Below, piece by piece: positions 3,616-8,461 of a DNA stretch of 64,000 bases (positions within the stretch are counted from its first letter, which is position 1; each line of letters opens with the position of its first letter). The notes beneath the pieces are model-generated. The model made no database searches, was not told the DNA's origin, and was given only the letters and a program-made list of their open reading frames with translations. Position numbers and translations under genes: made by a program. This stretch comes from Escherichia phage vB_EcoM_ESCO49, in the sequence record OM386663.1, one strand, 5' to 3'.

Positions 3616-4173
3616 TTACTTTCTCAGTGGATGAATAAAGAATGCCAACATAACTCTTTCCCTTGAGAATGCTCTTTCTTCTGGGACAACACTTTTTAGT
3701 TTCCATCCAATATAAATTCTCCAGTAAAACTGTTTACCAAAGATTTTAATTGATGGGATAAAAGCGAATAATCCCCAAGCATTGCTATTCCACATTAGGA
3801 GATAACCAGTCTGATTATCTTCAGGGTCAGAACTTACGCTGATATTACCTTTCCACTTAGTAACATCTTTTACATCTCTTCCTAATACATGGTAAGAGAA
3901 GTTATAAGCTTTGTTTCTCCAGAGCCATCCAACTCTCTGCATGTAGACACCCAGCTTACCAATCTTTCTAATCTTAGCCCATCTTTTAACGTGGCCTTCA
4001 TCACCATCAATCGGGTTGTCATAGGTCTCCATCCATCTGAATCCAAAAGGTAGATGCCCTTTCTTCTCACTGTAGAATGGAACCACGAAAGGTGCTAAGA
4101 TGACTGCTAGGGTTGCTGCAAATGGTTCTAGTAAAGCTAGGAAAATCCATGAAGCATACTTCAAATATCTCAT
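3616..4173 (-). CDS. hypothetical membrane protein embedded in the tRNA cluster
   Basis: 185-aa ORF with a hydrophobic N-terminal segment (WIFLALLEPFAATLAVILAPFVVPF); fills the gap between tRNAs without overlapping them. Confidence 0.35.
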   Translation of the reverse strand: MRYLKYASWIFLALLEPFAATLAVILAPFVVPFYSEKKGHLPFGFRWMETYDNPIDGDEGHVKRWAKIRKIGKLGVYMQRVGWLWRNKAYNFSYHVLGRDVKDVTKWKGNISVSSDPEDNQTGYLLMWNSNAWGLFAFIPSIKIFGKQFYWRIYIGWKLKSVVPEERAFSRERVMLAFFIHPLRK

Positions 4174-4271: not shown

Positions 4272-4346
4272 TGGTACTCACTAAAGGACTTGAACCTTTT
4301 TCTTCATCTTGTAAGGGTGATGTTTTACCATATAAACTAAGCGAGT
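4272..4346 (-). tRNA. tRNA-Val (anticodon UAC)
   Basis: CCA encoded; T-arm AAAGG/ACTTGAA/CCTTT; acceptor with one mismatch; anticodon loop CUUACAA. Confidence 0.6.
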
Positions 4347-4441
4347 GTGAAAGAGGTCTGAAGTTGTGCCGCTAACTCAACTCCGTGGAATTTGTTACGG
4401 TCTTCAGTTGACACCAGCGGTCTTTCACTTGACCTCTGAAT

Positions 4442-4518
4442 TGGTGCTGCTCACAGGACTCGAACCTGCATTTCCATCCTTACAAGGGATGTGTAATAGC
4501 CAATTATACGAAAGCAGC
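4442..4518 (-). tRNA. tRNA-Thr (anticodon UGU)
   Basis: CCA encoded; T-loop ACTCGAA; perfect anticodon stem CATCC/GGATG, loop CUUGUAA; acceptor 6 bp plus G-U. Confidence 0.7.
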
Positions 4519-4524
4519 ATTATT

Positions 4525-4599
4525 TGGAGCATCCAGAGGGAATCGAACCCTCAACCTCAGTTTGGAAGACTGTAATTTTCCCGTTTAAACTATGGATGC
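4525..4599 (-). tRNA. tRNA-Gly (anticodon UCC)
   Basis: CCA encoded; perfect acceptor (4529-4535 with 4593-4599); T-arm GAGGG/AATCGAA/CCCTC; anticodon loop CUUCCAA. Confidence 0.7.
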
Positions 4600-5192: not shown

Positions 5193-5205
5193 CCTAATAA
5201 GACTT

Positions 5206-5288
5206 TGGCATGGGACGGAGGAGTTGAACCCCTTTGAAACGGTGTTGGAAGCCGTTGCTCATGCCTTAGAGTCTTAACATCGTCCCAT
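5206..5288 (-). tRNA. tRNA, probably Trp (anticodon CCA), 80 nt with enlarged D region
   Basis: CCA encoded; perfect acceptor (5210-5216 with 5282-5288); T-loop AGTTGAA; best anticodon loop UUCCAAC; D region is about 7 nt longer than canonical. Confidence 0.45.
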
Positions 5289-5431
5289 ACTATAATTCGA
5301 AGCTTACCGTATTATCTCAACACTGTAAAGCCCCTTCTCAGATTATTTACATGTTCTGGAAAACATGAGATACAGACCACCTCCCTACAGGAAGACCCGC
5401 TTAGGTCGTCTAAGTAATCTGCTAACTAAAT

Positions 5432-5518
5432 TGGTCGAGGCGGCAGGACTCGAACCCGCATACTCCACTTACTCGGTTAACGTCTGTTTAGAAGACAGAT
5501 GAGATACGCCCCGTAATT
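5432..5518 (-). tRNA. atypical tRNA-like gene (anticodon-type loop UCU; canonical D-arm not foldable)
   Basis: CCA encoded; good acceptor CGGGGCG/CGCCUCG and T-arm GCGGG/UUCGAGU/CCUGC; perfect hairpin UCUGU/ACAGA with loop CUUCUAA; only 7 nt where the D-arm should be and 23 nt between that hairpin and the T-arm. Confidence 0.4.
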
Positions 5519-6084: not shown

Positions 6085-6278
6085 ATTAAATTATCTTTGT
6101 AGATAAGCTACCCAGACTTGCTTAAGGTCTGTAGCGATGTGACTTTTTGGGTTTAAATCTAGAATTTACCCTTTCACCCTTTGTGGTCGCATACTCACAG
6201 GTAAGCTTAATAACTTATCTACAAAGATAATTACCAGACCATTGTTTATCATCTTAACTAGATATCTCATAAAGTGTT

Positions 6279-6674: not shown

Positions 6675-6804
6675 ATTCTTAATGACCAGACCAAATCTCT
6701 TCTTTGTCCGATTTACCTTCAGATGAATAAGATTAAGTTTGCTGTAATTGGTCTTCTGTCAAAACTGGCGTTCCAGAAGGGATTTGTCTACTGGAACATT
6801 AATT

Positions 6805-7045: not shown

Positions 7046-8461
7046 TTACCAGATATAACGGTCAATCATTACTGCTTTGAGCATTACGCTGATTGGGTCA
7101 AACTTCTCACCACCAAGCAGAGCTTTTAAAGTAGCTGGAGAGAAACCAGATACCATTGCTACACCGTTATCCTTAACAGATACTTCGCAAGTACCATTAC
7201 GGTTTGCTAAGTACCAGAATACCAGTTGTGGCATCTCATATCCAGCTTTTTTGTACTTACTCTGAATTTCTTCAAAGTTTGTACGACCGTTAGCTCCATC
7301 AACCTGATTGAACTCCATATCGGAGAATATGATAAGCTTACTTGGCATATCTTTCTGAGTCAAGTTATTTCTTTTACCTGTCTCAAGAATGCGGTCAAAA
7401 GCTGCTTGTAAGTTAGTTGAGCCATATTCAACGTGTCGCATCACCTGACGATGACGGTTTTGTAAATCACCACTCAGTTCGATGAAGTGAGGGTTTGTTG
7501 AATAAACCATCAACTCATTCTTAAAGCAACCTGTATTACGTTCTGCTACATACAAGGCAAGTGATACACCAATATCAAGAGCAGTAATTGAACCAAAATT
7601 CACCCAAGACATTGAGCCTGAAACATCAGACATACATAAGATGTTTTCACCTTCTGCCATCCAGTTTGGTAGTGCCTTCCACTGCTCATTAGCAACATCT
7701 GCATCACCATACTTAACAGATTTAATCACATCATATGGGTAAACAGCACCAGCATTAATCTTAGCCTCACCCTTTGATAAGGACTCTATGTAGGCTTTGT
7801 AGCGTTCTCCATCCTTACGGTTAAACAGCTTTTGGTAACGTGCAGCAGCAAGTGAAGGAATCTTACTGTAGTCAATCTTACCAAACTCGTTAGCAGAGAT
7901 TTTTTGCTCAACTGTATCAGAGAGTGCAGACAACAGTGTGCGGTACTCTTTCTCACTCAAGTTGGCAAACTTGCAGAAACGTTTTACAAACTGCTTATGA
8001 CGTGGTTTGACTCGTGGTAACCACTTGGCTGCCAAACCTGCTGTTGCAGGGTCTAGTAATGCTGCTTCTAAATGCTTGAAGGTATCTGTCTCAAAACGAG
8101 TACCTACGAAGATTTTGAAGTCATCAAAACGACCAAGTTCTGCAATCTTATCCATAATGCGAAGAACCTGTGTAGGCTCTAAAACTTTATCTTCAATCGC
8201 TTGAAGCAAAACAGTTCTGAAGGCTTTACGCTCACCCATACCTTCTCGTACATCTCGCATATGAAGCAAAATACGAACTGCAACATCAACATCCTCACGC
8301 AAAGCTTTGTAGAACAGGTCTGGTAAGAATTCTACATTGCTACGGCTTGAACCAGCAGCTTTGTAAAAGTCTACAAGAGCAGACATTGATGAAGTATGGT
8401 TTACAGCACCATTTTCAGTTCGACCTGCATGAAGGTGCGCATGTTTAAATAACTCGCTCAT
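7046..8461 (-). CDS. vWA-domain protein with MIDAS motif (possibly TROVE/Ro60-like)
   Basis: 471 aa; DxSGS MIDAS motif in ILCMSDVSGSMSW and a second vWA strand LIIFSDMEF; N-terminal about 270-aa helical domain; sits next to the tRNA cluster. The TROVE assignment is recalled architecture, not an alignment. Confidence 0.5.
   Translation of the reverse strand: MSELFKHAHLHAGRTENGAVNHTSSMSALVDFYKAAGSSRSNVEFLPDLFYKALREDVDVAVRILLHMRDVREGMGERKAFRTVLLQAIEDKVLEPTQVLRIMDKIAELGRFDDFKIFVGTRFETDTFKHLEAALLDPATAGLAAKWLPRVKPRHKQFVKRFCKFANLSEKEYRTLLSALSDTVEQKISANEFGKIDYSKIPSLAAARYQKLFNRKDGERYKAYIESLSKGEAKINAGAVYPYDVIKSVKYGDADVANEQWKALPNWMAEGENILCMSDVSGSMSWVNFGSITALDIGVSLALYVAERNTGCFKNELMVYSTNPHFIELSGDLQNRHRQVMRHVEYGSTNLQAAFDRILETGKRNNLTQKDMPSKLIIFSDMEFNQVDGANGRTNFEEIQSKYKKAGYEMPQLVFWYLANRNGTCEVSVKDNGVAMVSGFSPATLKALLGGEKFDPISVMLKAVMIDRYIW

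What the first reader, a model, noticed from the sequence alone, without database searches (positions are those of the whole stretch)
4347..4441. 95-nt structured element between tRNA-Val and tRNA-Thr that is not a tRNA
AGAGGTC (4352-4358) pairs with GACCTCT (4431-4437) and CTGAAG (4359-4364) with CTTCAG (4402-4407), giving nested long-range stems, but there is no T-loop or cloverleaf. It may be a small stable RNA, a processing substrate, or a degenerate tRNA remnant.
Basis: seen in the sequence. Interest (0 to 1): 0.4.

Follow-up and report, generated by a model that had tools for sequence, protein, structure and literature searches.

The report
Conserved non-tRNA RNA in phage tRNA array
A 95-base stretch wedged between two tRNA genes of a Felix O1-type phage is most likely an unannotated, conserved, folded small RNA rather than a tRNA or junk spacer. 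It is a concrete but unproven candidate partner for the phage's neighbouring Ro60-like anti-defence protein.

Summary
The window is a Felix O1-like phage (Felixounavirus). Its tRNA array lies on the minus strand, and the element (4347-4441) exactly fills the slot between tRNA-Thr and tRNA-Val.

- **Replacement fold:** three nested inner helices form one long hairpin behind a 10/10-nt internal loop.
- **Family search:** ARAGORN and Rfam find no tRNA, YrlA, Y RNA or any other family here.
- **Distribution:** 259 phage records carry it, namely Ounavirinae plus six Avunavirus records, and E. coli genomes have nothing comparable.
- **Conservation:** between Felix-type and Av-05-type phages it is 83% identical with a 27-nt invariant core. 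That matches the tRNAs (77-88%), while true spacers cannot be aligned.
- **Covariation:** two base pairs show compensatory changes with G·U intermediates, and one lineage has a matched 2-bp deletion.

Most likely it is a small RNA excised from the tRNA precursor by tRNA-processing nucleases, acting through its invariant apical hairpin. Expression and function are untested. A Ro60-like gene sits 2.6 kb upstream, so a Y-RNA-like role is possible. Against this, the motif matches only approximately, and Av-05 has the element without that gene.

The parts
4347..4441 (-). Whole element, as RNA 5'-AUUC AGAGGUC ... GACCUCU UUCAC-3'. It fills the slot between the encoded CCA end of tRNA-Thr (4442) and position +1 of tRNA-Val (4346).
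   Evidence: Covariance model R1 matches window 4345-4443 on the minus strand at 125.9 bits.
4431..4437 (-). P1 5' strand, AGAGGUC. It carries the GGUC of the GGUCAAG stretch that partly resembles the Ro60-contact motif GGUCCGA; the AAG lies in the adjacent internal loop (4428-4430).
   Evidence: Column 10-90 changes from G-C to U-A in four Av-05-type sequences, with a G·U intermediate in L188. L187 has lost two base pairs on both strands.
4352..4358 (-). P1 3' strand, GACCUCU.
4421..4430 (-). 5' side of the large internal loop, AAGUGAAAGA. It is 8 nt long in Av-05.
4359..4368 (-). 3' side of the large internal loop, CACAACUUCA.
4416..4420 (-). P2 5' strand, CCGCU.
   Evidence: Column 26-74 changes from G-C to A-U in L182, with a G·U intermediate in L212.
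4369..4373 (-). P2 3' strand, AGCGG.
4406..4411 (-). P3 5' strand, UCAACU.
   Evidence: The only change is U-A to U·G, seen in the Av-05 lineage and in L187.
4377..4382 (-). P3 3' strand, AGUUGA.
4401..4405 (-). Invariant 5-nt bulge, GAAGA.
   Evidence: Invariant in all 25 distinct sequences.
4383..4400 (-). P4 hairpin, CCGU-AACAAAUUCC-ACGG. It is the apical part of the 27-nt core that is identical in Felix-type and Av-05-type phages.
   Evidence: Rare variants occur in loci that were fetched through a neighbouring protein rather than by sequence pattern: L158 has loop U to A and L160 has G to A.

Best explanation
The element is a gene for a small, structured, non-tRNA RNA that sits in the phage tRNA array as if it were one more tRNA cassette.

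**Shown**
- It lies on the tRNA strand, 4 nt after the encoded CCA of tRNA-Thr and 5 nt before tRNA-Val.
- No promoter-like or terminator-like site lies next to it.
- It folds as a closing stem P1, then a 10/10-nt internal loop, then a long irregular hairpin (P2, P3, GAAGA bulge, P4, 10-nt loop).
- It is kept under purifying selection across two phage subfamilies.

**Inferred**
- It is transcribed as part of the polycistronic tRNA precursor.
- Host tRNA-processing enzymes release it. RNase P cutting at tRNA-Val +1 would make its 3' end, and 3' maturation of tRNA-Thr would make its 5' end.
- P1 pairs the two ends and protects the roughly 86-95-nt product from exonucleases.
- The invariant apical hairpin (bulge plus loop) is the working part, recognised by a protein or RNA partner that is not yet known.
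For: - **Position and strand:**
- **Spacing:** the spacers to the flanking tRNAs are 4-5 nt, like the 1-7-nt spacers between neighbouring tRNAs.
- **No separate transcription signals:** no promoter-like or terminator-like site lies adjacent.
- **Fold:** z = -2.96. RNAalifold predicts the same four helices on its own.
- **Covariation:** 97.4% of cells are paired against 31-47% when partners are slid. Two pairs have double changes, each with a G·U intermediate. In 0 of 500 shuffles were the observed covariation score or percentage paired reached.
- **Matched deletion:** L187 has lost 2 bp on both P1 strands.
- **Selective retention:** against Av-05 the element is 82.8% identical. tRNA-Gly is 88.5%, other tRNAs 77-79%, the DUF7338 gene 74.8%, and intergenic spacers do not align.
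- **Portable unit:** in Av-05 the upstream neighbour is tRNA-Gly and the downstream neighbour is an ORF, so the element moves as a unit.
- **Not coding:** +1 indels among variants break both the GTG-started 18-codon frame on the minus strand and FelixO1 'ORF107' on the plus strand.
- **Spread:** it is found in 259 phage records, about as many as the 253 that hold the surrounding tRNA block.
Against: - No expression or end-mapping data exist, so every processing step is inferred.
- Diversity is low. Most sequences are over 95% identical, and covariation rests on about three independent events.
- P3 and P4 show only wobble changes, so they are supported by conservation rather than by covariation.
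- Strand evidence from one-sided changes is modest: six G·U events fit the minus strand and three C·A events fit the plus strand.
- In the L187 lineage the whole tRNA block, spacers included, is 89% identical. Only the Av-05 comparison therefore shows selective retention.
- No partner or target was found. The element has no complementarity above chance to the rest of the 64-kb window and no similarity to E. coli genomes.
Confidence: 0.5

Rival explanations
1. It is a Y-RNA-like partner of the phage's own Ro60-like protein (window 7046-8461, minus strand). P1 and the start of the internal loop would be the Ro-binding module. The invariant apical hairpin would tether an effector such as a host exoribonuclease, as in Ro60/Y RNA/PNPase complexes.
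For: - **The neighbouring protein looks Ro60-like.** It carries DUF2828 plus a vWA-like DUF7788 domain. Its homologues are annotated 'Ro-like RNA binding protein'. A profile of the family best matches the Thermus phage Ro60 homologue, PDB 9L5Y/9KOP, at E = 2.5e-4 (PMC12135203).
- **Independent report.** In the Felixounavirus Bas63, gp130 lies directly upstream of the tRNAs and is reported as structurally Ro60-like. It counters the Ppl defence system, and the authors guess that some 'tRNAs' are Y RNAs (PMC11482910).
- **Same layout in a relative.** In Klebsiella phage FBKp34 a 52%-identical homologue is followed by a sub-threshold YrlA match (39.6 bits) and then the tRNA array.
- **Partial motif match.** The 5' strand reads GGUCAAG, or GGUCGAG in L019 and L025. 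The Ro-contact motifs are GGUCCGA and GNCGAAN0-1G.
- **Same strand and close by.** The element lies 2.6 kb downstream of the gene.
- **Pattern in Av-05.** Av-05 lacks the gene, and there the stem motif has drifted while the apical core is intact.
Against: - Av-05-type phages keep the element with no Ro-like gene anywhere in the genome.
- The CGAA / GNCGAAN0-1G motif is not matched exactly.
- The element has no T-arm or D-arm and gives no YrlA or Y_RNA match, even at E<=10 on 121 nt.
- gp130 alone protects T7 against Ppl, so that activity needs no Felix-encoded RNA.
- Several other unassigned spacers in the array could hold the partner RNA instead.
Confidence: 0.17
2. It is a cis-acting part of the tRNA precursor, for example an entry or cleavage site for RNase E or RNase III. 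Alternatively it is a folding insulator that helps the neighbouring tRNAs or the downstream mRNA mature. In either case the product has no function of its own.
For: - It is embedded in the polycistron with no signals of its own.
- In Av-05 it lies about 30 nt upstream of an ORF start, in a 5'-UTR-like position.
Against: - A 27-nt stretch with an invariant loop and bulge is more than a spacer or generic nuclease site should need.
- Every other junction between adjacent tRNAs in the block from Leu(tag) to Leu(caa) manages with 1-7 nt.
- Its neighbours differ between lineages, with Thr, Arg or Gly upstream and Val or an ORF downstream.
Confidence: 0.15
3. It is a decayed tRNA gene, a pseudogene left in its old slot.
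For: - It occupies a tRNA-sized slot with tRNA-like spacing and has a 7-bp terminal stem like an acceptor stem.
- Felix O1 arrays do carry pseudo-tRNAs (PMC3185647). There is also an unrecognised tRNA-like sequence at about 5195-5290.
Against: - It has no T-loop or D-loop and no tRNA-clan score at E<=10.
- It is as conserved as real tRNAs across subfamilies, with compensatory changes.
Confidence: 0.06
4. It acts at the DNA level, as a homing-endonuclease or recombination site, or as a relic of a small mobile insertion. The hairpin would then be incidental.
For: - HNH and other endonuclease genes are inserted at various points in this tRNA block in related phages.
- The element travels as a cassette between contexts.
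- Both strands fold about equally well.
Against: - Compensatory changes with G·U intermediates favour an RNA helix on the tRNA strand.
- It has no terminal repeats and only one copy per genome.
- Insertions in relatives are not adjacent to it. In FelixO1 the insertion lies between tRNA-Thr and tRNA-Gly.
Confidence: 0.07

Closest known systems
Phage T4 small stable RNAs, species 1 (rnaC) and species 2 (rnaD)
   Same: They are non-tRNA RNAs of about 120-140 nt encoded in line with tRNA genes on the same strand, directly after tRNA-Arg. Their function is still unknown. They are stable products of the tRNA transcription unit; that last point rests on my own knowledge of the T4 literature.
   Different: There is no sequence similarity. 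T4 rnaC carries a canonical T-arm, CCGGGUUCGAAUCCCGG, and this element has none. The T4 RNAs sit at the end of the cluster rather than between two tRNAs, and they are longer.
Bacterial and phage Y RNAs (YrlA, Rfam RF02553; Thermus phage Yrl1/Yrl2)
   Same: - The size falls in the 80-130 nt range.
- The 5' and 3' ends pair into a stem that flanks a large internal loop, followed by a further stem.
- The element is encoded on the same strand near a Ro60-like gene that adjoins the tRNA genes.
- The 5'-strand sequence GGUCAAG or GGUCGAG resembles GGUCCGA.

Sources.
   Different: - The element has no tRNA-like T and D arms.
- The CGAA motif is not matched exactly.
- No covariance-model match is found.
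- Av-05 has the element but no Ro-like gene.
- Binding to the protein is untested.
tRNA (RF00005), including armless or pseudo-tRNAs
   Same: It has a 7-bp terminal stem, occupies a slot in a tRNA array, and has tRNA-like spacing to its neighbours.
   Different: It lacks a D-arm, a T-arm and a 7-nt anticodon loop. Neither ARAGORN nor Infernal finds a match.

Membership tests
tRNA (RF00005 / ARAGORN) | Cloverleaf with a T-arm (GTTCRANNC-type loop) and a D-arm | tested here: not met
   ARAGORN finds none. A motif scan finds no T-loop or D-loop in 4347-4441.
tRNA (RF00005 / ARAGORN) | Covariance-model score at or above the gathering score of 29 bits | tested here: not met
   No tRNA-clan match appears even at E<=10 on 4.8 kb or on 121 nt.
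tRNA (RF00005 / ARAGORN) | 7-bp acceptor-like terminal stem | tested here: met
   AGAGGUC/GACCUCU forms 7 bp. The length is not fixed: 8 bp in Av-05 and 5 bp in L187.
Y RNA / YrlA (RF02553, RF00019) | 80-130 nt, with the 5' and 3' ends paired in a stem that flanks a large internal loop | tested here: met
   95 nt, with P1 and a 10/10-nt internal loop. The criterion is taken from PMC4201824 and PMC12135203.
Y RNA / YrlA (RF02553, RF00019) | Ro-binding motif on the 5' strand (GGUCCGA in animals; GNCGAAN0-1G or CGAA in bacteria and phages) | tested here: inconclusive
   The window reads GGUCAAG, L019 and L025 read GGUCGAG, and Av-05 reads UGUCAAU. These are near matches only, and CGAA is absent.
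Y RNA / YrlA (RF02553, RF00019) | tRNA-like T and D stem-loops (the YrlA subclass) | tested here: not met
Y RNA / YrlA (RF02553, RF00019) | Covariance-model match | tested here: not met
   No YrlA or Y_RNA match at E<=10. As a positive control, the same tool finds a YrlA-like RNA in phage FBKp34.
Y RNA / YrlA (RF02553, RF00019) | Encoded next to a Ro60 orthologue | tested here: inconclusive
   This holds in Felix-type phages, where the Ro-like gene lies 2.6 kb upstream on the same strand. It fails in Av-05, where tblastn finds no homologue in the whole genome.
Y RNA / YrlA (RF02553, RF00019) | Physical binding to Ro60 | not testable with these tools
   Needs RIP, CLIP or a gel-shift assay.
T4-type small stable RNAs of tRNA clusters (rnaC/rnaD) | Non-tRNA RNA gene in line with the tRNAs on the same strand, with no promoter or terminator of its own | tested here: met
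T4-type small stable RNAs of tRNA clusters (rnaC/rnaD) | Accumulates as a discrete stable RNA in infected cells | not testable with these tools
   No transcriptome of a Felix O1-like phage was found.
T4-type small stable RNAs of tRNA clusters (rnaC/rnaD) | Sequence or structural homology to rnaC or rnaD | tested here: not met
   The folds differ, and rnaC has a T-arm. BLAST of the element against 50,697 phage records finds only Ounavirinae and Avunavirus.

The most novel reading that the evidence does not exclude
The element is the missing RNA subunit of a Felixounavirus Ro60-like ribonucleoprotein. It would be a Y RNA of a new, non-tRNA-like type, produced by tRNA-processing enzymes. Its closing stem would bind the gp130-type Ro60 homologue, which is already linked to countering the Ppl defence system. 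Its invariant apical hairpin would recruit a host factor.
Probability: 0.17. Interest if true: 0.75.

Novelty: new member of a known kind. Interest (0 to 1): 0.48.

Why it matters
Felix O1-type phages are classic Salmonella and E. coli typing and therapy phages, yet this element is unannotated in every record inspected, or covered only by a spurious ORF. If it is real, it adds a gene to about 250 sequenced genomes. It also gives a second example, after the T4 species 1 and 2 RNAs, of phages placing non-tRNA RNAs inside tRNA operons so that host tRNA enzymes manufacture them.

Recent work found that the Ro60-like protein encoded just upstream counters a bacterial defence system, and the authors guessed that its RNA partner hides among the 'tRNAs'. 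This element gives that guess a specific sequence to pull down, delete or mutate.

Tried and rejected
1. **Known RNA families.** Rfam was run at the gathering score, at E<=10 over 4.8 kb, and at E<=10 over 121 nt. Nothing relevant matched.
2. **Hammerhead ribozyme.** The sequence contains CUGAAGA and GAAA, but the order and spacing of the boxes cannot form the three-helix core. This was checked by inspection, and Rfam finds no match.
3. **K-turn at the GAAGA bulge.** The non-bulged strand reads AG where GA is required, and that position varies in Av-05. This was checked by inspection.
4. **Mimic of a host RNA.** BLAST against 5,426 E. coli genomes gives only one chance 24-nt hit.
5. **Antisense regulator of a phage target.** There is no complementarity above chance in the 64-kb window. 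One 11-mer was found against 3.4 expected, and 14 10-mers against 12.8. A duplex-energy scan timed out.
6. **Bacterial homologues.** Eleven exact 20-mer hits in bacterial metagenome-assembled genomes all fall in glutamine-amidotransferase genes at the GICYGLQ active-site motif, with no similarity in the flanks. This is a coding coincidence.
7. **Degenerate pattern scan of viral contigs.** The pattern TCAACTGAAGA-N12-24-AGTTGA returned mostly chance hits.
8. **More distant homologues via the neighbouring DUF7338 gene.** Model R1 finds nothing in L167 or L169-L176, nor near the Ro-like genes of four other phages.
9. **Small ORFs on either strand.** Frame-breaking indels rule them out.
10. **Own promoter or terminator.** None is present.
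11. **Bas63 check.** The GenBank accession I guessed for Bas63 turned out to be Bas51, so Bas63 itself was not examined.

Full report
**What the window is.** The 801 bases around the finding match 253 phage records, nearly all Felixounavirus and close relatives. The 95-mer itself is 100% identical to Salmonella phage Felix O1 (AF320576.1, 27805-27899). ARAGORN finds 19 tRNA genes between 2526 and 6881, all on the minus strand. The interval 4347-4441 is bounded exactly by tRNA-Thr(tgt) 4442-4518, whose CCA end is encoded, and tRNA-Val(tac) 4272-4346.

**Checking the observation.**
- The second stem is off by one base. CTGAAG lies at 4358-4363, so it shares C4358 with the first stem.
- The 95-mer folds better than shuffled copies. 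On the minus strand it gives -30.7 kcal/mol with z = -2.96, and on the plus strand z = -2.74.
- A 7-bp inverted repeat at this spacing is common. The window holds 215 of them, so the stem alone proves nothing.
- No tRNA and no Rfam family matches at any threshold tried.

**Relatives.**
- BLAST finds the element in 259 of 50,697 phage records. These are Ounavirinae plus six Avunavirus records (Vequintavirinae), such as Av-05 and TH18, at about 82% identity.
- No comparable match exists in 5,426 E. coli genomes.
- Further variants came from viral and metagenome contigs.
- Sequences fetched by an exact 20- or 21-mer are circular evidence for core invariance.
- Loci fetched through the neighbouring DUF7338 protein are not circular in that way. 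All Felix-type ones carry the element, with rare core variants in L158 and L160.
- A covariance model built from nine variants (R1) finds nothing in more distant phages that share the DUF7338 gene (L167, L169-L176). It also finds nothing near the Ro-like genes of four other phages. The family is narrow.

**Structure.** On 25 distinct sequences aligned to the model, RNAalifold predicts the same four helices independently.
- 97.4% of cells form standard pairs, against 31-47% when the 3' partners are slid by one to three columns.
- Two pairs show compensatory double changes, and each has a G·U intermediate.
  - P1 column 10-90 goes from G-C to U-A in the Av-05 lineage, with G·U in L188.
  - P2 column 26-74 goes from G-C to A-U in L182, with G·U in L212.
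- In L187, P1 has lost two base pairs on both strands.
- P3 and P4 vary only by wobble changes.
- One-sided changes give six G·U events that fit the minus strand and three C·A events that fit the plus strand. This is a modest vote for the tRNA strand.
It competes with P3, so I reject it.

**Is it under selection?** The informative comparison is window against Av-05.

| Feature | Nucleotide identity |
|---|---|
| The element | 82.8% |
| tRNA-Gly | 88.5% |
| Other tRNAs | 77-79% |
| DUF7338 gene | 74.8% |
| Intergenic spacers | not alignable |

- A 27-nt core, GUCAACUGAAGACCGUAACAAAUUCCA, is identical in both.
- The neighbours differ. In Av-05 the element follows tRNA-Gly and precedes an ORF. 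In Felix-type phages it follows tRNA-Thr or another tRNA and precedes tRNA-Val.
- It therefore behaves as a conserved, portable unit and not as a decaying pseudogene.
- One caveat applies. In the divergent Felix-like contig L187 the whole tRNA block, spacers included, is 89% identical, so that comparison does not single out the element.

**Other readings tested.**
- No promoter-like or terminator-like site lies next to it.
- Indels among variants break the short frames on both strands, including the 'ORF107' annotated in AF320576.
- There is no complementarity to the rest of the window above chance.
- Eleven exact 20-mer hits in bacterial genomes are a coincidence with the GICYGLQ active-site codons of glutamine amidotransferases.
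- T4 rnaC and rnaD are the obvious precedent for non-tRNA RNAs inside phage tRNA clusters. They share no sequence or fold with this element, and rnaC has a T-arm that this element lacks.

**The Ro60 lead.** The gene directly upstream of the array (7046-8461, minus strand) carries DUF2828 plus a vWA-like domain.
- Its homologues occur in 709 phage records, many annotated 'Ro-like RNA binding protein'.
- A profile of the family best matches the Thermus phage Ro60 homologue, PDB 9L5Y/9KOP, at E = 2.5e-4. That protein binds two phage Y-like RNAs (PMC12135203).
- In the Felixounavirus Bas63, gp130 lies directly upstream of the tRNAs and is described as structurally Ro60-like. It counters the Ppl defence system, and the authors guess that some 'tRNAs' are Y RNAs (PMC11482910).
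- In Klebsiella phage FBKp34 a 52%-identical homologue is followed by a sub-threshold YrlA match and then the tRNA array.
- No YrlA-like RNA is detectable anywhere in this window, so the partner RNA in Felix-type phages is unidentified.

**How well the element fits a Y RNA.**
- For:
  - It has the general Y-RNA shape of stem, large loop and stem.
  - Its 5' strand reads GGUCAAG, or GGUCGAG in two variants. That is close to the Ro-contact motif GGUCCGA.
- Against:
  - The CGAA motif is not matched.
  - There are no T or D arms.
  - The Av-05 genome has the element but no Ro-like gene.
  - gp130 alone rescues T7 on Ppl.
- I therefore keep this as the most novel reading that the evidence does not exclude, at about 17% probability.

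**Verdict.** This is a real, conserved, structured, non-tRNA element, most likely a small RNA cut out of the tRNA precursor by host tRNA-processing enzymes. Expression, ends, partner and function are all untested. It belongs to a known kind, the small RNAs embedded in phage tRNA clusters, but it has no recognised family.

Noticed in passing
window 7046-8461 (- strand): A 471-aa Ro60-like protein (DUF2828 plus vWA-like DUF7788) is encoded directly upstream of the tRNA array. A profile of the family matches the Thermus phage Ro60 homologue (PDB 9L5Y), and the Bas63 counterpart gp130 is reported to counter the Ppl defence system. No canonical YrlA RNA is detectable in the window.
   Followed up: partly
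window ~5195-5290 (- strand): An unannotated tRNA-like sequence has a 10-bp terminal stem, a T-arm (GGGGUUCAACUCCUCC) and an encoded CCA. Both ARAGORN and Rfam miss it. Its 3' half is conserved in Av-05 (L002 1589-1640).
   Followed up: partly
window 5435-5513 (- strand): Rfam finds a tRNA here (33.4 bits) that ARAGORN does not. By position it corresponds to tRNA-Arg(tct) of related phages.
   Followed up: no
window 6675-6804 and 6085-6278 (- strand): Related Felix-type phages have tRNA-Glu and tRNA-Asp in these gaps (L158, L187). This window yields no tRNA call there, so the genes may be lost or degenerate.
   Followed up: no
L226 8003-8116; L228 7895-8018 and 8025-8140; L227 3494-3613: Unusually long (111-124 nt) tRNA-like RNAs have normal acceptor, D and T arms but a conserved two-hairpin insert (...AAAAAC-hairpin-UAUUCAGCA...) in the anticodon region. 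In three unrelated phages they lie within a few kb of the DUF2828 Ro-like gene: just downstream in FBKp34 and LPCS28, about 2.3 kb upstream in LAh_6. They may be a separate class of Ro-associated tRNA mimic.
   Followed up: partly
L226 7707-7814 (Klebsiella phage FBKp34): A sub-threshold YrlA (RF02553) match of 39.6 bits, with clear T-like and D-like arms, lies between the DUF2828 gene and the tRNA array.
   Followed up: partly
window 4366-4575 (+ strand): The mechanical ORF antisense to the element and to tRNA-Thr and tRNA-Gly reads ...LRGICYGLQL..., which resembles the glutamine-amidotransferase active-site motif. This explains the chance 20-mer hits in bacterial genomes. The equivalent 'ORF107' in AF320576 is almost certainly spurious.
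   Followed up: yes
window 3616-4173 (- strand); L002 1697-2239: A DUF7338 protein gene is embedded in the tRNA array. It is shared at 79% amino-acid identity with Av-05 and at about 60% with T4-like and Vi01-like phages, always among or near tRNA genes.
   Followed up: partly
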